From assembly GCF_009914755.1 (NCBI RefSeq), contig NC_060937.1: a stretch of DNA of 64,000 nt; one strand, written 5' to 3'. Of the stretch, positions 183-19,864 are shown piece after piece. The position numbers and the translations under genes are program-made. The notes under the pieces are model-generated. The model was given only the letters and a program-made list of their open reading frames with translations. It was not told the DNA's origin and searched no databases. Origin of the DNA: the human T2T-CHM13v2.0 reference genome, Homo sapiens. Position 1 is the first letter of the stretch; every line of letters starts with the position of its first letter.

Positions 183-713
183 GTAAGATAAAGAATACAT
201 ACCAATAAATTGCAGGAGAAATCTTTCCAAATAGCATCTACAGTGATTCATGAGTAGACCCTTAGTATTCTGAGGTTTTGGTTTTCAGACATAATACATT
301 CTCATTCTTTCCACCATTTGTAGTTACTGAACATTTGTCATTGTAGCAAAATCTAGATAAACTTTATAGGGAAGAAAATTAGTGATAAAAAGCCAGAAAA
401 ACTAGCTCCAATAATAGTTTATTCCTGGCATTTTTTTTCAGTTTGAAGTATAGTATACTATAAAAAGAAATTTTAATATTATGCAATGTAAGTGGCATGG
501 AGTGCCTTTATTCTCCCATATTTATTTTTTCTTGCAGACAGGTTTATACATTTTAAGCTGTCAGTTCTTTCTCATGAGCATAGTTGTTCCGTGTAGTTTA
601 TTGATTTGTCTCTAAACATATTGGTATAATTACCTTGATAAACCCTGGGGAATTTTTTTCACTGCTAAAATTACGTTTTTCGAAAGAATAGTTCTTTTTT
701 TTTTCTTTTTTTT

Positions 714-1363
<650 letters not shown>

Positions 1364-3069
1364 CATTCGAAAGAATAGTTCTGAAGATCTAAAGTAAATT
1401 TGCTGAGTCTGTCATTAACTTACAGCAGTTTTAAATTACATAGCTATATCCTAATTAAATGTTAATTTGAGAATATGTCCTTATTGATAAAGATTTACTT
1501 TTTTGTTCTAGCATTTGTGTTTGTAAGTTCTATCGGTTTGATCTTGTTAATTGGCTCTTTTAGGCAGAGCTGCATTCCATTTTGGCTATATAGAGTTTAG
1601 TAAGATCTGATAGAAAAATGAGAAATAAGAGGGTCTTGTTTTGTATGGTATTTATTTTCTCACAATTATCATTTAAAACACTATTTTAACCTTTTGTCTT
1701 GGAAATGATGAAACACTTCAACAATCAGAACTTTAAAATCTAGATCAGTGGTTCAGATTCTCTTGATGTTTTTGTCATCAAGGTCTTATGTCTCAGTTAT
1801 ATAACTTATACTTAATGAATTTCTGAGGTTTTATGAGAAGAATATCATGTCTCAAACAGAATTCTGACAAACTTGCCCCTAAACATAAAGGAATTTTAGT
1901 ATTAATTAGAGTAGGCATAGTTATGAATTCAAATGTAAGGTTTTGATTTGAAATTAGATAAAGATGTATTTTTTCCAGGGTCGTCTTTGTAAAATGACAA
2001 GAATTGGTGTGTGTATTCTTTATAGACCACACCATTCCCAAACTCGTATTACTGACTAGAATATTATATTAAATAACAACAAGATCTCTTCCAGAGCCAA
2101 ATACAACCAAATAATAGAATTTAGGAGAAAGTACACTTAGATGTGTTAGAACTAGGTCTTCTAGTTAGAGTAAACCTCCAGGTGTCACTTCTTGAAGCAT
2201 TTAACTGCTTTTTAACTGAGATTAGAAGTCAGTCACTGTGGTTTTGAAGAATTTTGAGGTAATATAAAAGCTACATTTCATACTATTATAAAATCAAATG
2301 GAAGATGACATCTATGTGATAAGAGATACAGGCAAGTTAGGGAATCAGCCTCATTTAATTTCACTTTATTTAATGTTCTCCTTTATCTCAAGACCTTTTT
2401 ATCTTCACATTTTCCCATTTCTGGCATCCTGTCTTTCACTGTAACATGTTTGCACAGAATAACAGTATACATAGGCAGGTAAATTTTTCTAAAACAGTAT
2501 ACATAGGTAGTTGAATTTTTGCAGTAGAACTCTTGATTTGCAAATAGGCTTATGGTTAGAAGTTGAATTAAAGCCTGTAGTGTCATATACTGGTTTTCTA
2601 GCAAGACTCTTGGAGAAAGAGATACTAGTAGAAGACACAATCTGATTGGGGTGCAAAAGATAAAGTAGCTAGATAATATTTTACTCTTATTTGATGCCCT
2701 CAAAATAATTTAGAACCTGTTTTACTATTGACTCTTAGTTGTTAAAACTCAGGGGAGTTTTGATTATTGGGATTCCCAACTAGGGAAAGAACTAAAAATA
2801 AGTTTTCAGAGAGAGTAGCCATCCTCAGTGAGAAAAATTGATAATTAACATCCTTGGTAAGTATTTCATATGTAATTGCTTTTTTACTTTAGAGATAATT
2901 GATTAAAACCATTTCTGTGTAGTATAGATCATAAATATAATTTGTTTTCTATATATTTCAAAGTGATTATCATAAAAAGCAATACAATTAACCATTTTAG
3001 TATTATAAGTATCTTTTATATGTAATAGGACTTTACAGTTTGTTGTATAAAGAATACTAGGATGTTATT

Positions 3070-4556
3070 TTTTTTGTGACCTATACCATAATATAAATGT
3101 AAGATATTACACATAAACATTGAAAATTTCTAGTTTTATGATCATAAACTAGAACTTGATAAATTTAATGGCTATGATAATGGTATTAACATGAAATTTT
3201 GCCCTCCAATAAATTAAAAATTTGAAAAAATTGACCATCTTTCTGGTAAGTTTTGAAATACTTATTGCAATAACATATATAAACTATCAATAAATACTGT
3301 TGCAAGCACTTTGAAGGTGTTGATTGATTTTGATTATAGAAAATACATTTGCTTTTATTCCCTTTACTATTTAGGTCGCTACGCATTTCGGATCTGGAAA
3401 CCTCTAGAACAAGTTATCACAGAAACTGCAAAGAAGATTTCAACTCCTGTAAGTTAAACGTGGCTTTAGTTAGAAGACTCATTTTGATTTTTGTTCATAT
3501 GACATATTTCAATTAACTTAGAAAATGTCTTGGATTTTCCAATGTTTGTAGAAGTTTGTTTCCTTCACTATATCATTGGTGAGTTTGTCTAATTTACTGG
3601 CTCAGTTTCTTTTAAGTTATTGGTCACATTATTTTTATATCTAACTTTATTCCTGGTTTTGACATCTAATTATTATAATCTGTTTAGTAGTATTACATCA
3701 AATTTGATGTAACTTACTTTACCCGTTTAGTTACTGTTCATTTATTCAATAAACATTTAGTGAGTCCCCCATCCCTGTGCCAGGAGCTTGGAATAGCTGA
3801 TGAACAAAGAAGACATGGTTCTTGTCCTGATGAAGCTTATCCAAGAGTTGATGCCATCTTGTAATTTGAAACTAGTCCCCTTATACCATCATGCCTGGCC
3901 ATCTCAAACATAAAATTATGAGATTTCAACCATGAAATCCTGTAGAACTTATTATACATTTTTGTACCAGCATTATAGCTACTCTGGGGAGCTGAATGTA
4001 AGTGAAAAAATGAATGAGAGTATGTATCCGTAAAAGCAACAGTATGGATTGTAGTTTGTAACCACTGAAGACAATATAAAGAAAAGTCAGTGAGGCCCTG
4101 CAGCGTAAACATTGGCTTCAGGGAAACAGAAGCAGATCTGGGATAGATCAACTTGGTTGAGACTTGAGATTGTCAAATTGCTGCAAACCAAGTTGATCAT
4201 CCGCTATTCTGCTATTCTGAGTTCCTGGCACAGGGATGGGGACTCACTAAATGTTTATTAAATAAATGAACAGTAATTAAACAGGGAAAGTAAGTTATGT
4301 CAAAGTTGATATAATACTACTAAATGTAAAACTACTAAACTACCTACTTTATATATGTTATTTCAATAAATATTTCAAAACTTACCAGAAAGACTGTCAT
4401 TTTTTCCAAATTTATAATTTATTGGAGGACAGAATGTCATGTTAATACCATTATCACAGCTATTAAATTTATCAAGTTCTAGTTCATGATCATAAAACCA
4501 GAAATTTTCAATGTTTATGTATAGTATCTTTATATTATGGTATAGGTCACAAAAAA
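3070..4556. repeat. Two-part inverted duplication: 3070-3283 vs 4348-4556, and 3683-3797 vs 4211-4324
   Basis: Manual reverse complement aligns both pairs at roughly 90% identity. Confidence 0.93.
3375..3448 (+). CDS. DNAJC15: DNAJC15 exon 3, 74 nt, (G)RYAFRIWKPLEQVITETAKKISTP
   Basis: Acceptor ccctttactatttag, donor gtaagt at 3449; continues the exon 2 frame (phase 1 to 0). Confidence 0.96.
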
Positions 4557-4774
4557 TGAATTGCTTCTTTTAGCAAAGACATTACAGGCTTGTGAGGCTT
4601 AGTTAGCCATGAATAATGACAGCACCAAAGGATGACATACTGACAAATAATTAAACTTAGATTCAAAAAAACAGCAAGTGATTTTACAGTCCTATAAATG
4701 CATGTCTGTGATTAGAGGGAACATAGGTGTATTTTCTGTTTTCCTATTTATATTTTATTTGGCTAAAATATTGG

Positions 4775-5410
4775 TAGGTATTCAGTAAATATTCTTTGAG
4801 CACCTACTACATACTACATTACCATAGACAGTGGGATATAGTTATGGACCAAAGACATTGCCGTCTAGGAGCTTACATGTTAGTGGAGAGACACAGTGTA
4901 AAAAAAAAAAAATGAAGTAAGATATATAATACCTAAAAGTGTCGAGTGCTTTTGAGAAAACCAAATCAGGGTAAGAGGTTAAAGAGTAACAGCAATGAGG
5001 AATCTTTACCTTAGATAGGCCAGGTAAGGTTTCTCCAAGAAGATAAGGGAGCAGGCCATACAAGCCTCTGGTGTAAGAGCTTCCTAGGTGGTGGGATCAC
5101 TGCAAAGGTCCTGAGGTGCAAATGAGTCTAGCAGCAAGAGTAACTCCAAAGGAGTATATGAAGGGAATAGTGGTAGCTTGGGCCCAGATCCCTTAGGGCC
5201 TAATAGACAATGAAAAAAAACTTCAAATTTTACCTTAAGCGTGAAAGAAAGCCCTTGGAAGGGTTTGAGCATGGAGGCAATGTGATTTGTATTTTAAGTT
5301 ATCACTCTGCTTGCTACCTTAGAGCCAGAGTAGAAGCTGTGAAACCAGTAAGCGGGTATTGAGATAGTCCGGGTGATAGATGATGGTGGCTTGAAATAGA
5401 GTAGTAGCAA
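4775..5410 (+). mobile_element. L2 LINE fragment (strand label tentative)
   Basis: attcagtaaatattctttgagcacctact...ggagcttacat...gatgatggtggcttg, typical of L2 3' regions. Confidence 0.6.
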
Positions 5411-7026
5411 TGGACACAGTAACATAGTTCTTTAAATGAATTCTATTTATATATTTCCATATGTTTATAAATAATAAATGGAAAGAATTTCAGAAATCGT
5501 TTCTTTTCTGTTACGGTGATCTTCAATATAGTGTAAATAGAAAATTACCAAGCTGTGCAAAACTACATTATTTAACATTGTAAAGGAAGAGAGAGCAAGA
5601 AAATGAGAAAATCTTCAGTAGTTGGTAGAGGCTTACAGATAAGGCCGGGTAATTCAAGAGATTATAAGGGATATACTCATGTAAACTCTTTATTCAGTGG
5701 CTCATATGACCTGCTCCCTCATCTCAGAGGAGCCTTACTTAAGAGTCTGAGCCTGGTACCTGCATTTCTTAAAGGGAAATGATGTGTGTACCCCCTTTTC
5801 CCTCTTTGTGGGGCTCAAGGTAAGAAACTTCGCCTTCAATAAATCTGGCTTCTTTTTCACAAAGTGCTACTCTTAAGAGTTTGCAGTAAAACATCTTAGA
5901 ATATCTTTATCATTGTCATAATCATAATTATATTTTTACCTCAGGAAAGATGCAAGTACTTTTAAACAATTTTAAAACTAGTAATCATTTCCAGGGAAAC
6001 TGAGAAATGAAATATGTGCATACTTTCTGTTGGTACTAATGAATCCCAGTGTCACACCTCATAAACACAGTATACACAGTGTTTTGATTTTGTAAATATT
6101 ATTAATTATTGAACCAAATAGGGTTACTAAAAAGACAGGAACTGTAATTGTGGGTCACTAAATCTCTGTCATTCAAAGAAGATTGTCCAAGGCTCAAGTT
6201 TCAACGGGGGGTCTCTTTTCCTTGTTTCTTTAAACTTTATTTGCTTTCTCTAAGCTTTAACATGTTGTTTTTCAATCTTATCTCTTTTTCATACTTTTTT
6301 TTCATCTTGCTGAAATAGTGCCTTGGATAAGTCTTTTATATGGAATGCATGGATGGTAAATGTATTTTCTGCTTTGTTAAACAGTTTGTTTCTTTTGTTC
6401 TCACTGTTAATTATCAGCTGCTAGCTCCTTGAAATCTGGTGAAGCCAACATTAGAGAAGTATAGAAATCTCTGCTGAGACTAAGCCTTAGTGCCTGAACT
6501 CCCGCATTCCTGCATACTCACAGCTAGATTTTTTGGTGGTCTTATTATTCTTATTCCATTGTAGACAACCTATTGTTTTGGTTTTCTTTTGTTGTTTGGG
6601 TTTTGGGGTTTTACATTTTGGTGGTGGTGGCTTTTATTTTTAGCTCTGAAAGTTTGTAGGATTTTCTCTTTCTTACTGATGTTCTGGAATTTCACAAGAA
6701 TTCTTAGTGAGCCCTAACTTATTTGAAAATGGTCTTTAGTTCTGTAAGATTTTCTTACAGTTTTTTCTTTTATTATTTCTTCCTTTCATTGTCTCTCTTT
6801 TCTGCTTCTGGAACTCTGAACAGAGAGATGAGAAAGATGTTGGACCTGATAAAAAGATGTCTGTCCTCTATGTCTCTTACCATTTTATCTCTTATTTTCC
6901 ATCTCCTTATCTTTCTTTGCTCTTCATTCTACAGTATTTTCACAGCTTATTTTCCAGATCACCAGGTTGGCCTTTAGCAATGTCTATTCTGTTTTTCATC
7001 TATCCACCGAATTCTTCACATCAGCA

Positions 7027-7308
7027 TTTTTTTTTTTTTTTTGGAGACAGAGCCTAGTAGTGCGGTTGCGCAATCTCGGCTCACTGCAACTTCTGCCTCC
7101 TGAGTTTAAGTGATTTTCCTACCTCAGCTTCCTAAGTAGTTGGGATTGCAGGCACTCGTCACTATTCCCAGCTAATTTTTGTATTTTTAGTGGAGATGGA
7201 GTTTCACCATGTTGGCCAGGCTGGTCTTGAGCTTCTGACCTCAAGTGATCCACCCACCTCAACCTCCCAAATTGCTGGGATTATAGGCGTGAGCCACTGC
7301 GCCCGGCC
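7027..7308 (-). mobile_element. Alu (AluS-like)
   Basis: Poly-T, ctcactgcaac...gtgagccactgcgcccggcc. Confidence 0.93.
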
Positions 7309-9248
7309 AACGTTAGTAATTTTCTAACTTCCAAGGATTCTTTCTTGTTTCTTTTTTCTGGCAACCCATTTTTTAATTAATGTGGTATCCTTTTGAATAT
7401 TTCTAAAGCCATTAATTAGCATTTGGCCAAATTCTCTTCTGCTTCCTAATTTATCTCCTTTTCCTAAAGTCAGTTGTTATGTGTTCATATTGGTTCTTTT
7501 TTTCCCCTCCATGATAATTGGGTTTGCTCAAATGTCCAGTGATCCTTGGTTGTTGATTCATATTTATGATGACTAAATTGACTAATAGAAGTAATGTTCT
7601 TGACTTTTCTTCAGCAGTTTGGTAGGGTTGCTTCAACAGCTTAATTGAATGACAGTGTTGACAGTGGGCTGTAAATAACATAGGTGGGTTTGTTAACAGG
7701 CATGTCTTTCAGAGCAAGGAGACTAGAAGGCAGCATTGGTACCTGGAGAGTCCAGGAGAGGTTGAGCACCGTGTATATTTTACTCCTTGGCATAGCTTCT
7801 CACCTCCCTAGGCTTCTGGGTTCTGAAATGGGATCTGCTGGTATGCCTCTTTGGTTCTCTTAGTACCTACCACCCAAAATAAGATGCGTATCAGAAAAAG
7901 AGGCATATGGTTCTCTTTCTCAGCCTGAGGGCATGACAGGTACCTGGCCTCTTATGCTCTATATGAGTAGAGTAGGAATGATCTGTTTATATTGTTCTGG
8001 TTTAATAAGTTTCGCTGATTTTTTTATTGTTGTTGACTCTGAATTTAGTGTTCTTGTTTTCCTGAAAAGGGTTTCTTTTTTTCTCTGATGTTTGAAGCTG
8101 CTGGGATTTTTCTGTACATGCAAATTTTACCTAGGATTTCTTTAAACTTTCTGGTTTGCTATTTATCCCATTTCTTGTTTTCTAGGCCTATTAAGGGTGT
8201 TTTAAAATTTACAGTGTCTTTACTCATTTCAAAGGCACTTCGGAAAGCAAAAGATCTTTATGATTCAGTCTGCTCTTTTGAACAAGTGCCCTTTTGCTTG
8301 TTTTTTTGTTTTTTTTTTAAATTAATGTATTAATGTATATTATTGACTCAGCCAATGTCTAATTACCCTTAAATTTTTTTCTGGGGGAGAAAACCCATCC
8401 TTCTTCTTTTTTTTTTGAGGCTTTGAATTTTCTATTTGTGAATCTGTCCTTTTATTTGAATATAATTTTTTAAATTGCATTTATTTTGTTTTATGATCAA
8501 GTGAAATTTATGGAAAAATATACTAATTAAATCATCCTTTGTTAGCTTTAAATCAAATAGATTATTGTACATAATAAAGTTTATAGTTTATGATAAATGT
8601 ATTCTTTTAAAACTATGGGATGATCCAGTTCTTCTCTAGTTGTCTGGAGGACTTTTGTGTTTCAGGCTATTGAGTGAATGAATTAGCTAATGAATACTTT
8701 GGTTTAACTTAGCAAAGGAGACACAAAATAATCTAACATGGCACTATAGCATTTATTGCTAATTTTAGAAGGAAAATGATTTTGATTTCTGTCATTTATA
8801 TATACAATATTTTATGAATGGGATAGTACAAAATAATCATTTGTAAGGTCCAGGATGTGTTTCTGTTTTCAGAAAAAAAGGACCATTTACTCCATCTATT
8901 TGATGGTATACTTGTTCCTTACAGTAATCTCATTTTTTGGATCTAAACATTTTCTTTGACCTACCACAGTGTTGTCAGAAAATGGTTCTGCAGTGGCTTA
9001 TACCTGTAAGTCCTAATATAATGCAATGTGGGTATATTATTTTCAAGCTTAAAAGGACCTTTCAGTTTTATTAGTGGGGAGGAGTACAGAGTTACAATTT
9101 TGTGCTTTCTCATGACATAGATATTAATTCAAACATAATAATGGATTAAAATACTGTGATAACAGTTTTGTTCTATTTAAAGTTATATAAGACCTAAATT
9201 TTCTAGAAGTTTAGGAAGCATGATTTTCTCTGAAGAAATGTGTAAATA

Positions 9249-9507
9249 CAGTTGACCCTTGAACAACCTGGGTTTGAACTGCACAGGTCCACTTAATCAT
9301 GATTTTAAAAAATAAACTCAATGAGCCCTCCATGTCTGCAATGAAATGTAGATCAAAAATGTAGTATTCATGGGATGCAAAACTCACCTATGCTGAGGCC
9401 AACTTTTTGTATCTGTGGTTTCTGTAGGGCTGACCGTGGTGCCTGAGTGCAGATTTTAGTATGAGTGGTCCTGGAACCAGTCACCCACAGATACTGAGGG
9501 TTGAATG
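9249..9507. mobile_element. Tigger-family MITE (MER8/Tigger2-like)
   Basis: Begins cagttgacccttgaacaac, ends gatactgagggttgaatg, flanked by TA on both sides. Confidence 0.8.
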
Positions 9508-10121
9508 TATTTTAGTAGTGTGTAACATAGCAATTTTTTGTTTTCTCTTTGTATACTTTTCTGCACCCAGCCCCACATGTTAAGTCTCTATTCTCAAAAT
9601 GGTCTAGATCTTTTTGGAAGGGTTGTGTTGATTATATGTATATACAGATTGACTTACTCGTAATAAAATCAGTGTTCATATGAACTTCTTCCCGACACTA
9701 GATTTTTGGCAGCCTTTTCTGAAACTCTATGTCTACCTGGGCAAAACTGAAAGTGAAAAAATTGCTCAGATACCAATACCTGCTTTTAAGATTAATGAGC
9801 TTGGTGACTATAGTGGGAATGACAGTTTATGAAACATGATAAATTTATCTTTTTTATTATGCTGGCTCCAAATTTTAGAGCTCCCTAAGGTAAATAAAGA
9901 CTCATTGAAATATTTTTTTCCTGAATAAAGAATTATTCTATGTAGTAGTTCAGGCATGATTTAAAAACAAAAGTAGGAGCAAATATTTGGTGATACTTCT
10001 GTTTTGTTATGACTAAATCAACTAATTACCTTTAATTTAGGGAGTAACGTATGCATCTAGTAAAAATTTTGGTTTCCTGAAAGAAACCTTAAAACCAGCC
10101 CCTATTCCTCTAAGTCCCTCG

Positions 10122-10405
<284 letters not shown>

Positions 10406-13056
10406 CCCTTACTTCTTTCCATTTGTATCTGTATCTGTATTTCTCTCTCTATCTCTCTTTATATATGTGCATACTCTCTATGTATGTTTAGAAAGATATA
10501 AAATTTGTTCAGGTTAGTATGTGTGCTTAACCCAATTTGATTATCCTTCCTCTCCTCAAAACTTGTGTCAGGGGTGGGGGACTATTTGTTTTTTTACTGG
10601 ATTATAAATTACTTGAAACTTGGAGAGTATATTATATTCTCACAGTATTGATTCATTGATAGATTAGCATCTGTGTGATGAAGGACAGTCCTTGATCTCT
10701 CATTTGAAAAGTGCCTGGTACACAGCAATTGCTGAAGTGTTTATTGAATGAATTAATTGCCAGGAATTATTTATTACCAAGTAGAAATTTATAATAAGCT
10801 GTTCAAAGAGTATAGCTTATATAAATGGCCAGATCTGACTCCCTAGAACCCATTTTTTAAGCTCTAGTCATTTCCTTAGTTTCTTTTAGTATTCTTCTTT
10901 CTTTAATTGTATAAATAGCCTGTGCTCATTGTTGAAAATTTAGAAGTTAAAAACAAAGAAAAAATTATAATCCCACCAGCTAAAAATAACTTTAAAGTTA
11001 TATGCTTTCAGATTTTATTTCATGTAAGCATACCTATTTTTCCCTACTTTTGTAAGGAAATGGTTTCATGCTTAGAAACGTTTAATGCCTGTAATCATAT
11101 ATGTGTATGTTTCCTCCTAAAAGCTAAGTTTATACATCCTGTTTCTCTGTTTAGAGCTACTGAAAATAGTGTCTTTACTTGCTGTCTCCATTCCTTTCTT
11201 TCCATTCTGTCTTAAATACACTCTAATCATACGCTCACCTCACTTTCTGCAGCTCTTCTCAGTTTTTGATGTCCTCTTTGCTAAATCCAGAGGTCAGTTT
11301 GTGGCTCTCATTTTACTTTACCTATTAGAAACTTTGAAACCATTTTTCATTTCCTCACTCTTGACTTGTAGTTACCATCCTCCTTTACTGCTAGGCCTTG
11401 TCAGCCTCCTTGACTGATTCCTCTCCATTTCTATACCACAAAGTGTTGCAGTCTTTAGGGAAGACTCCTTGGACTTCTAATTTTTAAACCATCTTACTTC
11501 AGTCTCATGGCTTTAAATGCTATCTGTACACTAATGACTCTCAAATGTAAAGTCTGATGTTAAGTCAGACATTCTCCACTTGGATATTTAAGACATTTTA
11601 AACTTAGTATATCCGAAATCATTCTCCTCATGTCTGTTATTCACAACAAATAAACAGCTGCTCCTTTCCTCAGTCATTAAATGGCAATTTGGCAGTTTAG
11701 GCCAGAAACCTTGAAGTCATTTGCACAGCTTGGGTTCTCTGGAAAGCAGAGTGAGATAAAGATTAGCAAGCTATACTTTTATTAAAGAGTGCTCTTAGCA
11801 TAAACAACTCCAGAAAGAAAGGGAAGGACAAGTTAGGCTTCAGTGCATTCCTACAAAAGCCTCAGCCAATCTCACAATAACCTCTAAGCAAGGATGGCTC
11901 ATTGTAGTTATCCCAAGTTGGGGCAAGGGGTCATAGGATTAAATGACATTACCCAGGAAGTGAGCATATATATAAGAAGTCCAAGGACTGAACCCTAGAG
12001 AAATACAATGTTTCTATCCCATGTCAACCAGTCAGTAGATACAGGCTGCCCTGCAAAGTGGGATAAGCTTGACTTCCTTTAGGCAAGGCAATTCCTAAAG
12101 TGTCTGACAGCTGGGAGCTATCAGCCAGCCACAGCCCCAGTGTCTGGGGAGTAAGTCCTTCACGCCTGATGGGGATCTGATGAGCACATAACAGTGTCCT
12201 CAACATCATTCTTAATTTTTCTTTTTCTCATATCCCAAATTCAATCCATCAAGGAAATGTTAGTTCTGTTTTAAATATACATCCAGAATCTAACCACTTT
12301 TATCACCTCCTCTGCTACCGCCTTAGTTCATACCATCATCATCTGTTGTCTGGATTATTGTTATGTTTTCTGAACTGGTCTGCTACTTCTACTCTTGCAC
12401 CTTTCTATTCTCTACATGGCAGTTAGATTAAATCGAAGTTAGATTGTTATTCCAGTGCTCTGGCTTCTCCTCCCACTTAAAATTCTAAATTCCTTCCATT
12501 GTTTACAAGGCCATCCACAGTCTGGTTCCCATTATATCTCGAGTCCTCCTTTTCTCCTTGTTCACGCCTCTCCAGCAGCATTGAAACCTTTTAATCCAGC
12601 TTCCCAGCCTCTCTTGGCTTGCCTGTCTGCTAGTGTGACATACTCCCCTCTTCATTAGTTCCTCCCCATTCTCTGTTGGCTAGTGTGGTAGGCTAAACGA
12701 TGTCTGCCATATCAACATTAAATGACTTCATCAAGGTTATCCAATGAGAAAAGTACTACAGAGCTTAGAAAAAGTTCAAGCATTTTGCTTCTACCAGTCT
12801 GTTTTGTTCTTTCTGTTGTATCTTGGTGTAGAAAAATTAATCTGTTTTAAAGTGAAAAAAAGTTAGTATTTTTTAAGACTTCATATTGGTCAAAATTTCT
12901 TGAAAAGTTTCATTGTTTGGTGCTTCCCCCCGCCCCATAATTTTGAGTTGACTTCTAGTAAAATGCATTACTCTCACTGCAGCTACATGATGAGATTGAG
13001 GTCATGCCACCTCATACGTGGAACTAATGATTTCTTGCTCTTTCTTTCCTATACAG

Positions 13057-13133
13057 AGCTTTTCATCCTACTATAAAGGAGGATTTGAACAGAAAATGAG
13101 TAGGCGAGAAGCTGGTCTTATTTTAGGTGTAAG
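13057..13133 (+). CDS. DNAJC15: DNAJC15 exon 4, 77 nt, SFSSYYKGGFEQKMSRREAGLILGV(S)
   Basis: Branch-like ACTAAT at 13023-13028, pyrimidine tract and acag acceptor, donor gtaggt at 13134. YYKGGFE..M.RREA.LILGV is the Pam18/Tim14 family signature. Confidence 0.97.
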
Positions 13134-15877: not shown

Positions 15878-16180
<303 letters not shown>

Positions 16181-16234
16181 ACATTTATGATTTTTAAGCT
16201 TTCTAAAAACTTTTGTAGAATTCTGTTTATAAAC

Positions 16235-17573: not shown

Positions 17574-17911
<338 letters not shown>

Positions 17912-19527: not shown

Positions 19528-19864
<337 letters not shown>

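What the first reader, a model, noticed from the sequence alone, without database searches (positions are those of the whole stretch)
3070..4556. Inverted duplication predicted to fold the pre-mRNA with DNAJC15 exon 3 bulged out
Seen: 4348-4556 is the reverse complement of 3070-3283 (~210 bp, upstream of exon 3), and 4211-4324 is the reverse complement of 3683-3797 (~115 bp, downstream). So 4211-4556 is an inverted copy of 3070-3797 lacking the central ~400 bp that contains exon 3 (3375-3448) and its splice sites. The arms are mostly non-Alu AT-rich DNA, roughly 90% identical. Inference: two long, nearly stacked dsRNA stems could form with exon 3 in a side loop, favouring skipping, ADAR editing or back-splicing. 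Skipping exon 3 alone (74 nt) gives G|AG CTT TTC ATC CTA CTA TAA, a stop at 13074-13076 that should trigger NMD. This would be a structure-based way to tune MCJ levels.
Basis: partly seen in the sequence, partly recalled or inferred. Interest (0 to 1): 0.75.

Follow-up and report, generated by a model that had tools for sequence, protein, structure and literature searches.

The report
Inverted duplication around DNAJC15 exon 3
A stretch of DNA next to exon 3 of the human DNAJC15 gene was copied backwards into the following intron tens of millions of years ago, so the gene's RNA can fold into a long double strand around that exon, but nothing found here shows that this affects the gene.

Summary
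Arms A 3070-3286 / A' 4345-4556 and B 3683-3800 / B' 4208-4324 are reverse complements: 300 of 329 aligned bases, 91.2%. In the whole T2T genome each arm matches only itself and its partner. So this is a locus-specific inverted duplication, not a repeat family. The copy lacks about 395 nt that hold exon 3.

Junction details point to template switching with polymerase stuttering. Divergence (K2P 0.095) suggests an age of roughly 30-50 Myr, which is inferred.

Folded as RNA, both stems form: P(A:A') 0.89, P(B:B') 0.92, about -260 kcal/mol compared with a shuffled copy. Exon 3 lies in a 396-nt side loop. Skipping exon 3 does give a frameshift with TAA at 13074-13076.

The regulatory claim has no support. 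Wobble-preserving changes are not in excess, 9 G.U against 11 A.C. The sense strand has no stability advantage. A random deletion of this size would remove the exon in 75% of placements. The exon is 74 nt with consensus-like splice sites. No paper reports skipping, a circRNA or editing at this site.

Most likely this is a near-neutral rearrangement scar and a probable ADAR substrate. It is a new member of a known kind.

The parts
3070..3286 (+). Arm A, the original, in intron 2. It ends 88 nt upstream of exon 3.
   Evidence: 195 of 212 bases identical to the reverse complement of 4345-4556. Only 2 places in the genome match, both here. P(paired with A') is 0.89.
3287..3682 (+). Segment absent from the inverted copy. 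In the predicted fold it is a 396-nt lateral loop holding exon 3, its branch/polypyrimidine region and both splice sites.
   Evidence: No counterpart in 4186-4556. The only other genome match is the exon-3 part of a processed pseudogene on C9. None of its pairing goes outside the segment.
3375..3448 (+). DNAJC15 exon 3, 74 nt. It changes the frame if skipped.
   Evidence: Hub annotation. Translation of exons 2-6 is open in one frame. The acceptor has a pyrimidine-rich tract before AG and the donor starts GTAAGT.
3683..3800 (+). Arm B, the original, in intron 3. It starts 234 nt downstream of exon 3, and homology probably continues weakly to about 3822.
   Evidence: 105 of 117 bases identical to the reverse complement of 4208-4324. 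Only 2 places in the genome match. Extension to about 3822 comes from a gapped alignment. P(paired with B') is 0.92.
3801..4185 (+). Spacer between B and B', the hairpin loop of the inner stem. It includes 4127-4158, one arm of a secondary inverted repeat.
   Evidence: (pair I5).
4146..4198 (.). Secondary inverted repeat at the inner boundary of the copy. 4146-4158 and 4186-4198 are 13 nt of perfect complement, about 32 nt with gaps, with a 27-nt spacer.
   Evidence: I5: 4131-4158/4186-4213, 75%. alignment: the last 13 columns are perfect.
4186..4207 (.). Probable inner end of the inverted copy, corresponding to original ~3801-3822. It carries an 8-nt tandem duplication and a 6-nt deletion.
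   Evidence: Gapped alignments. Weaker than the main arms.
4208..4324 (+). Arm B', the inverted copy of B.
4325..4344 (.). 20-nt junction that replaces the missing 395 nt. It is 5 nt of filler plus a 15-nt tandem re-copy of the first 15 nt of B.
   Evidence: the reverse complement of 4318-4352 matches 3682-3698 at 16 of 17. Each of the two tandem units differs from the original at one private position (read).
4345..4556 (+). Arm A', the inverted copy of A, in intron 3.
4176..4182 (.). Left copy of a candidate 7-nt target-site duplication (AATTGCT). The right copy is at 4559-4565.
   Evidence: With windows chosen after seeing the match, P is about 0.03 against intron-3 window pairs. Suggestive only.
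4559..4565 (.). Right copy of the candidate 7-nt target-site duplication.
13074..13076 (+). Premature TAA reached if exon 2 is joined to exon 4.
   Evidence: the skip isoform reads ...AFAELFILL* in the frame of exon 2.

Best explanation
This is a locus-specific inverted duplication. About 750 bp around DNAJC15 exon 3 (3070 to ~3822) was copied in reverse orientation into intron 3 at ~4186-4556, and the copy lacks the central ~395 bp that hold the exon. The most likely origin is a single replication or repair accident with several template switches: copy B backwards, stutter 15 nt at its end, jump over 395 nt, copy A, then return. This probably happened in a primate ancestor roughly 30-50 Myr ago. 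As a result the pre-mRNA can fold into a two-part, AU-rich intronic double strand of about 212 + 117 bp, with exon 3 and its splice sites left single-stranded in a 396-nt side loop. I expect the main molecular outcome to be ordinary handling of intronic dsRNA, meaning ADAR editing and helicase unwinding, with at most a small effect on exon 3 inclusion. I read it as a tolerated, near-neutral scar rather than an evolved regulator of MCJ. Shown here: the repeat, its uniqueness in the genome, its junction anatomy, the thermodynamic fold and the frameshift. Inferred: the mechanism of origin, the age, editing and the lack of a splicing effect.
For: Repeat and coordinates: (300 of 329 identical). Not a repeat family: each arm has 2 of 2 genome matches at this locus and none elsewhere. 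The missing middle has no other local copy. Template switching: the 20-nt junction is a 15-nt re-copy of the start of B plus 5 nt. There is also an 8-nt tandem duplication and a 13-nt perfect secondary inverted repeat at the inner boundary. This has the geometry of the published '3-2-1-4' inverted-repeat-creating switch, though much longer (passages of PMC5453318). Age: K2P 0.095, 20 transitions and 9 transversions. Fold: MFE -576.9 kcal/mol against a mean of -316.5 for 5 folds with the copy shuffled; P(A:A') 0.89 and P(B:B') 0.92; branch/polypyrimidine region 0.28 paired. Signs of neutrality: among 20 transition differences, 9 keep a G.U wobble in the sense RNA and 11 give A.C (binomial p = 0.82). 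Summed duplex energy is not better on the sense strand (-413.3 against -426.5 kcal/mol). A 395-nt deletion placed at random in the copy removes exon 3 and its signals in 271 of 359 placements, so loss of the exon needs no selection. Small expected splicing effect: the donor starts GTAAGT and the acceptor has a long pyrimidine tract. RefSeq lists one transcript (hub table). In the one minigene study of intronic inverted Alus, the effect on the exon vanished once the repeat was about 92 nt or more from the exon (24 nt native plus an insert of 68 nt or more; PMC2533698 section 11). Arm A ends 88 nt upstream.
Against: No outgroup sequence was available, so the ancestral empty site, the age and the single-event model are all inferred. 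Gene conversion between the arms would make the repeat look younger than it is. A:A' is the only inverted pair of 60 nt or more that flanks exon 3 within introns 2 and 3. It is also the longest and best-matched inverted pair within 3 kb in the whole 64-kb window, out of 8 pairs. It therefore has no local competitor and could matter more than a typical Alu pair. The 88-nt distance is right at the borderline of the RABL5 ruler, which comes from a single gene. The G.U/A.C test has only 20 sites and little power. NMD-sensitive isoforms are usually missing from RefSeq, so one annotated transcript is weak evidence. The published junction table I saw lists only the four annotated junctions of exons 2 to 6 and probably never tested an exon 2-exon 4 junction. 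A candidate 7-nt target-site duplication (P about 0.03) fits some other insertion mechanisms as well as, or better than, simple template switching.
Confidence: 0.62

Rival explanations
1. The A:A' and B:B' stems loop out exon 3 and promote its skipping. The frameshifted mRNA is then removed by NMD, so the structure, modulated by ADAR or helicases, tunes MCJ/DNAJC15 levels in primates.
For: Both stems are predicted with high probability and exon 3 lies in the loop. Skipping gives a premature TAA in exon 4 of 6. A:A' is the only sizeable complementary pair across exon 3 in its flanking introns. A' lies only about 1.1 kb past the exon while exon 4 is 9.6 kb away, so the fold could form before intron 3 can be removed (inference). 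Inverted intronic repeats can turn a constitutive exon into an alternative one (PMC2533698, abstract and section 11).
Against: No skipped isoform is annotated (hub). None was found in 6 DNAJC15 literature searches. The only DNAJC15 'exon skipping' report is a 129-bp exon in hamster cells, which is not this 74-nt exon. The splice sites are consensus-like and stay unpaired. Arm A is 88 nt from the exon, at the edge of the distance where the RABL5 effect was lost. The stem shortens the 12.9-kb path from exon 2 to exon 4 by only about 1.5 kb. There is no wobble bias and no sense-strand energy advantage. DNAJC15 expression is known to be controlled mainly by promoter methylation (recalled, not checked here).
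Confidence: 0.12
2. The flanking pair A:A' drives back-splicing of exon 3 into a circular RNA, as inverted Alu pairs and the mouse Sry repeats do.
For: A and A' lie in the two introns that flank exon 3 and pair strongly. Inverted repeats of 30-40 nt can be enough for circularization (PMC4201285, passages).
Against: Exon 3 is 74 nt. [quoted passage not shown] None of the 14 papers with both 'DNAJC15' and 'circRNA' was seen to describe a DNAJC15 circle. I read passages of 2 and the listing of the other 12. circRNA databases could not be queried.
Confidence: 0.04
3. A rival for the origin. The copy is an RNA-templated or L1-assisted insertion of an antisense transcript of this region, rather than a DNA template switch.
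For: There is a candidate 7-nt target-site duplication right at both boundaries (4176-4182 and 4559-4565; P about 0.03). Read on the + strand the insert ends in a run of six A.
Against: The A run is templated by the T run at the start of arm A, so it is not a separate tail. The missing 395 nt are not bounded by GT..AG on either strand (read). The stuttered 15-nt re-copy and the secondary inverted repeat are typical of polymerase switching. No antisense transcript is annotated here (hub).
Confidence: 0.12
4. The arms are copies of an interspersed repeat family that happen to lie in opposite orientation, like an Alu pair.
For: Part of B and its continuation (3775-3839) has one 80% match on another chromosome. 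It resembles an old SINE by recall only.
Against: A and B each have no genomic match other than their partner (the tool's counts are lower bounds). A' and B' keep the order and spacing of A and B apart from one clean deletion. Independent repeat insertions would not do that.
Confidence: 0.03

Closest known systems
Inverted Alu pairs in introns that flank an exon (complementary-sequence-mediated back-splicing; Liang and Wilusz 2014, PMC4201285)
   Same: Complementary sequences in the upstream and downstream introns are predicted to pair and bring the exon's two splice sites together. Arm length (212 bp) and match (92%) are in the Alu-pair range or better.
   Different: The arms are single-copy DNA made by a local duplication, not retrotransposons. 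A second stem (B:B') lies wholly in the downstream intron. The enclosed exon is only 74 nt, far below the sizes that circularized in that study. No circle is known.
Mouse Sry locus: an exon flanked by >15-kb inverted repeats that drive circularization (Capel 1993 and Dubin 1995, seen only as cited in PMC4201285)
   Same: It is a non-Alu, locus-specific inverted duplication that flanks an exon.
   Different: The Sry repeats are about 50 times longer and circularization was shown by deletion experiments. Here nothing has been shown experimentally.
RABL5 exon 3: two inverted intronic Alus pair, are edited, and make a constitutive exon alternative (Lev-Maor 2008, PMC2533698)
   Same: Intronic dsRNA lies close to a 3' splice site, and exon skipping is the proposed outcome.
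   Different: In RABL5 both Alus lie in the upstream intron, 24 nt from the exon, and the effect disappeared at about 92 nt or more. Here the pair straddles the exon and the nearest arm is 88 nt away.
Template-switch mutations that create inverted repeats and hairpins (four-point model, Loytynoja and Goldman 2017, PMC5453318; also PMC8794818, search listing only)
   Same: A nearby segment is re-copied in reverse complement. The switch-point order 3-2-1-4 creates an inverted repeat, and there are indels and filler at the switch points.
   Different: The published events are tens of bp long. This one is about 370 bp and has an internal 395-nt jump, closer in scale to the FoSTeS/MMBIR events described for larger rearrangements (recalled).
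Non-repetitive predicted dsRNAs of the human genome (dsRNAscan, Andrews and Bass preprint, PMC11838218)
   Same: It is an intronic dsRNA formed by arms that are not annotated repeats. The preprint reports such structures as sparse, with 4,597 of them edited (sections 6, 9, 10).
   Different: I could not query that resource, so I do not know whether this structure is listed or edited. At 91% pairing it falls below the preprint's 'long and highly paired' class (>300 bp and >96% paired).

Membership tests
Local inverted duplication of single-copy DNA | Two segments are reverse-complementary well beyond chance. | tested here: met
   300 of 329 identical. Genome-wide E = 4e-77 and 1e-34 for the partner arms.
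Local inverted duplication of single-copy DNA | The order of sub-segments is mirrored: A..B, then B'..A'. | tested here: met
   A pairs with the distal block and B with the proximal block.
Local inverted duplication of single-copy DNA | The arms are not members of a dispersed repeat family. | tested here: met
   Each arm gave 2 of 2 matches at this locus and none elsewhere in 3.1 Gb. Caveat: the tool skips very common words and its counts are lower bounds. 3775-3839 has one 80% match on C16.
Exon-flanking complementary introns that cause back-splicing or skipping | The complementary arms lie in the introns on both sides of the exon. | tested here: met
   A lies in intron 2 (183-3374) and A' in intron 3 (3449-13056). 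Hub annotation.
Exon-flanking complementary introns that cause back-splicing or skipping | The arms pair in the transcript. | tested here: inconclusive
   Thermodynamic prediction only: P(A:A') 0.89. No editing, PARIS or RIC-seq data could be reached.
Exon-flanking complementary introns that cause back-splicing or skipping | A circular or exon-skipped product is observed. | not testable with these tools
   None is annotated (hub). None was found in the literature searches. No read data or circRNA database was available.
Exon-flanking complementary introns that cause back-splicing or skipping | The enclosed exon is long enough to circularize. | tested here: not met
   The exon is 74 nt. [quoted passage not shown] That rule comes from one system.
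Template-switch (four-point model) mutation | The inserted fragment is a reverse-complement copy of nearby sequence. | tested here: met
Template-switch (four-point model) mutation | The ancestral or sister sequence lacks the fragment. | not testable with these tools
   No other primate or mammalian genome is held.
L1-mediated or RNA-templated insertion | Target-site duplication, an untemplated poly(A) tail and an endonuclease-type target. | tested here: inconclusive
   There is a 7-nt candidate duplication, P about 0.03. The A run is templated by arm A. The target motif was not evaluated.
Known structured RNA family (Rfam) | A match to a curated covariance model. | tested here: not met
   0 matches at E <= 1 in 2500-5200 on both strands.

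The most novel reading that the evidence does not exclude
A primate-specific, non-transposon inverted duplication acts as an RNA switch for DNAJC15. When the A:A'/B:B' duplex persists, exon 3 is skipped and the mRNA is lost to NMD. When ADAR editing or DHX9-type helicases open the duplex, exon 3 is included. MCJ, a brake on mitochondrial respiration, would then be coupled to the cell's dsRNA and interferon state in primates only. The absence of any competing inverted repeat in introns 2 and 3 would make this single structure decisive.
Probability: 0.08. Interest if true: 0.65.

Novelty: new member of a known kind. Interest (0 to 1): 0.3.

Why it matters
If it is only a scar, it is still a clean, datable example of a complex template-switch insertion that created a long intronic dsRNA from single-copy DNA. 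That class is reported to be sparse next to repeat-derived dsRNA (PMC11838218). It would also be a convenient natural substrate for studying non-Alu ADAR editing. If it does affect exon 3, it would be a lineage-specific, structure-based control of a mitochondrial respiration regulator. It would also show that small inverted duplications, and not only Alu insertions, can turn constitutive exons into NMD switches. The test is cheap: public junction and editing tables at the coordinates given below.

Tried and rejected
1. Repeat-family origin: rejected, because each arm has no genomic match other than its partner.

2. Splicing of a sense or antisense RNA as the cause of the missing 395 nt: rejected, because the boundaries carry no GT..AG on either strand and the junction holds a stuttered re-copy.

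3. Selection as the reason why the exon is missing from the copy: not needed, because 271 of 359 random placements of such a deletion remove it.

4. Selection on sense-strand pairing: no signal. G.U 9 against A.C 11, p = 0.82, and duplex energies are no better on the sense strand. The test has low power.

5. Known RNA family or miRNA-type hairpin: 0 Rfam matches.

6. Literature, 10 searches in all. 'DNAJC15' with circRNA gave 14 papers, with exon skipping 3, with ADAR 11, with nonsense-mediated 10 (9 listed), with RNA editing 6, and with alternative splicing 43 (25 listed). I read passages in 8 of them. None concerns exon 3, this repeat, a DNAJC15 circle or editing in this intron. The rest I judged from the listing only. 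The hamster Dnajc15 skipped exon is 129 bp. The MARVEL DNAJC15 events are retained introns upstream of this window.

8. Cross-species dating: not possible, because no eukaryotic genome other than this one is held.
Full report
**1.

A repeat scan of 2500-5200 found no direct repeats. It found four inverted blocks that make up two arm pairs:
- 3070-3106/4520-4556 and 3088-3286/4345-4543 (pair A:A')
- 3683-3769/4238-4324 and 3767-3800/4208-4241 (pair B:B')

Gapped alignment gives these figures:

| Pair | Coordinates | Identical | Gaps |
|---|---|---|---|
| A:A' | 3070-3286 vs reverse complement of 4345-4556 | 195 of 212 | one 5-nt gap |
| B:B' | 3683-3800 vs reverse complement of 4208-4324 | 105 of 117 | one 1-nt gap |
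| Both | | 300 of 329 (91.2%) | |

The differences are 20 transitions and 9 transversions.

The copy lacks about 3287-3681, which holds exon 3 (3375-3448), its branch/polypyrimidine region and both splice sites. The hg38 junction coordinates printed in a published supplementary table give the same lengths for intron 2 (3192 nt) and intron 3 (9608 nt) as this T2T window. An assembly artefact is therefore unlikely.

**2. What it is at the DNA level**

A search of the whole 3.1-Gb assembly with arm A and with arm B returned only the query and its inverted partner (2 of 2 matches each). The arms are therefore not a dispersed repeat family, with the caveat that the tool's counts are lower bounds. 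Only 3775-3839, at the edge of B, has one further 80% match on another chromosome. I take that to be an old interspersed repeat. It looks like an ancient SINE by recall, which I did not test.

The missing middle has no second local copy. Its only other match is the exon-3 part of a DNAJC15 processed pseudogene on contig C9.

The mirrored order (A..B, then B'..A') with one clean internal deletion shows that 4186/4208-4556 is an inverted copy of 3070-3800/3822. Exon 3 belongs to the coding frame of the gene, so A-exon 3-B must be the original.

**3. Junction anatomy and likely origin**

Five features stand out:
- The 20 nt that replace the missing 395 nt (4325-4344) are 5 nt of filler plus a 15-nt tandem re-copy of the first 15 nt of B (16 of 17 match).
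- The two tandem units each differ from the original at one private position. That suggests the re-copy is as old as the duplication.
- At the inner end the copy probably continues to original ~3822 (about 4186), with an 8-nt tandem duplication and a 6-nt deletion.
- Right there lies a secondary inverted repeat, 4146-4158/4186-4198, 13 nt perfect and about 32 nt with gaps.
- At the outer end, homology stops inside a T run.

These stutters and nested inversions are what serial template switching of a polymerase leaves behind. In the published four-point model this is the '3-2-1-4' order that creates an inverted repeat (passages of PMC5453318). The events described there are tens of bp long, and this one is about 370 bp.

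A 7-nt direct match (AATTGCT) sits at both boundaries, 4176-4182 and 4559-4565. Its chance probability is about 0.03, with windows chosen after seeing it. It leaves room for a staggered-break or RNA-templated insertion. However, the terminal A run is templated by arm A, and the deletion has no GT..AG boundaries on either strand. I therefore rank that origin lower.

**4. Age**

K2P distance between the arms is 0.095. With neutral rates of 1-1.5e-9 per site per year (textbook range, recalled) this gives about 32-47 Myr. The wider range of 0.5-2.2e-9 gives 21-95 Myr. Gene conversion between the arms would bias the estimate towards younger ages. No other mammalian genome is held, so this could not be checked by presence or absence in other species.

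**5. The predicted RNA**

Folding 3065-4560 as RNA gives an MFE of -576.9 kcal/mol. The structure has an outer stem A:A', an inner stem B:B' closed by a 407-nt loop, and exon 3 inside a 396-nt lateral loop opposite the 20-nt junction.

In the ensemble:
- A pairs with A' with mean probability 0.89, and B with B' with 0.92.
- The branch/polypyrimidine region is 0.28 paired.
- The exon with its splice sites pairs only within its own loop, with 0.00 pairing to the outside.

Shuffling the copy raises the MFE to a mean of -316.5 kcal/mol over 5 shuffles. The repeat therefore contributes about -260 kcal/mol.

The stems are not truly stacked; the junction between them is a 396/20-nt asymmetric loop. 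All of this is equilibrium thermodynamics. It ignores proteins, helicases and co-transcriptional folding.

Within introns 2 and 3, A:A' is the only inverted pair of 60 nt or more that straddles exon 3. The Alu-sized repeats at 1068-1369, 7059-7307 and 10118-10400 all share one orientation, and the only opposite one is at 19537-19826 in intron 4. In the whole 64-kb window, A:A' is the longest of 8 inverted pairs of 80 nt or more within 3 kb. Together with B:B' it is also the best matched, 88-91% against 72-84% for the others.

**6. The frameshift claim**

Exons 2-6 translate in one open frame. The stop lies in exon 4 of 6, so by the established 50-55-nt rule the transcript should be an NMD target. 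That last step is inference.

**7. Does it regulate anything?**

I found nothing that says so, and several weak signs that it does not.
- **No wobble bias.** Of 20 transition differences, 9 keep a G.U wobble in the sense RNA and 11 give A.C (p = 0.82). The summed duplex energies are -413.3 kcal/mol for the sense strand and -426.5 for the antisense strand. There is no bias towards keeping the sense RNA paired, though the power of this test is low.
- **The missing exon needs no selection.** A 395-nt deletion placed at random in the copy removes the exon and its signals in 271 of 359 placements.
- **Consensus-like splice sites.** The exon has a GTAAGT donor and a long pyrimidine tract.
- **One transcript.** RefSeq lists a single transcript (hub table).
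- **Distance from the exon.** In the RABL5 minigene, inverted intronic Alus stopped affecting the exon once they were about 92 nt or more away (PMC2533698 section 11). Arm A is 88 nt away, which is borderline, and the ruler comes from one gene.
- **Exon too short for a circle.** For back-splicing, the 74-nt exon is far below the sizes that circularized in the ZKSCAN1 system, where exons of 400 nt or less did so poorly or not at all (PMC4201285).
- **No published report.** Six literature searches pairing DNAJC15 with circRNA, exon skipping, ADAR, nonsense-mediated, RNA editing and alternative splicing turned up nothing on this exon, this repeat or editing here. I read passages in 8 of the papers. 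A single-cell splicing table lists only the four annotated junctions of exons 2 to 6 plus two retained-intron events upstream of the window. It probably never tested an exon 2-exon 4 junction.

On the other side, the pair has no competitor, and it can form long before exon 4 is transcribed. A small effect on inclusion cannot be excluded.

ADAR editing of a 212-bp plus 117-bp AU-rich intronic duplex is what general knowledge predicts. A genome-wide preprint reports that non-repetitive dsRNAs are sparse and that 4,597 of them are edited (PMC11838218 sections 6, 9 and 10). I could not query that resource or REDIportal.

**8. Verdict**

The repeat is real, locus-specific and structurally striking. 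Its most likely nature is a near-neutral template-switch scar of primate age that creates an intronic dsRNA. It is a new member of a known kind, namely exon-flanking inverted repeats and template-switch hairpins.

Interest is 0.3. The case is worth a look-up in public editing and junction tables, which would settle it quickly, but on present evidence it is not surprising.

Noticed in passing
L005:1016-1348 (G000:C9:137571515-137571847, minus strand): A processed pseudogene of DNAJC15. Coding positions 3-336 of exons 2-6 align without introns at 85% identity, with an in-frame stop. Exon 3 is present between exons 2 and 4, so the source mRNA included it.
   Followed up: partly
window 3243-3251: A strong 5'-splice-site-like motif (CTG|GTAAGT) lies inside arm A in intron 2, 124 nt upstream of exon 3. 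It is identical in both arms. The A:A' stem would bury it, and no role was tested.
   Followed up: no
window 4146-4158 and 4186-4198: A 13-nt perfect inverted repeat (about 32 nt with gaps) with a 27-nt spacer lies exactly at the inner boundary of the inverted copy. Its two arms share differences from the original 3790-3822, which suggests a nested second template switch.
   Followed up: partly
window 3130-3152: A near-perfect 23-nt palindrome lies inside arm A (part of pair I7, 3112-3136/3146-3170). Its origin is unknown.
   Followed up: no
window 1068-1369, 7059-7307, 10118-10400, 15879-16198, 17601-17906 versus 19537-19826: Five Alu-sized repeats in introns 2-4 share one orientation and only the one at 19537-19826 is inverted. 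No Alu pair can therefore form a duplex within introns 2-3. The first possible Alu duplexes span exons 3-4 or lie within intron 4.
   Followed up: partly
window 3775-3839: One 80% match on G000:C16:25436307-25436370. This is probably an ancient interspersed repeat that overlaps the end of arm B and continues past it. The family was not determined.
   Followed up: no
outside the window, about -10164 to -3260 (hg38 chr13:43055391-43062295): A published single-cell study lists two DNAJC15 retained-intron events here, in intron 1, among its top differences between iPSC and endoderm cells (PMC10018366 supplementary tables). They are unrelated to exon 3.
   Followed up: no
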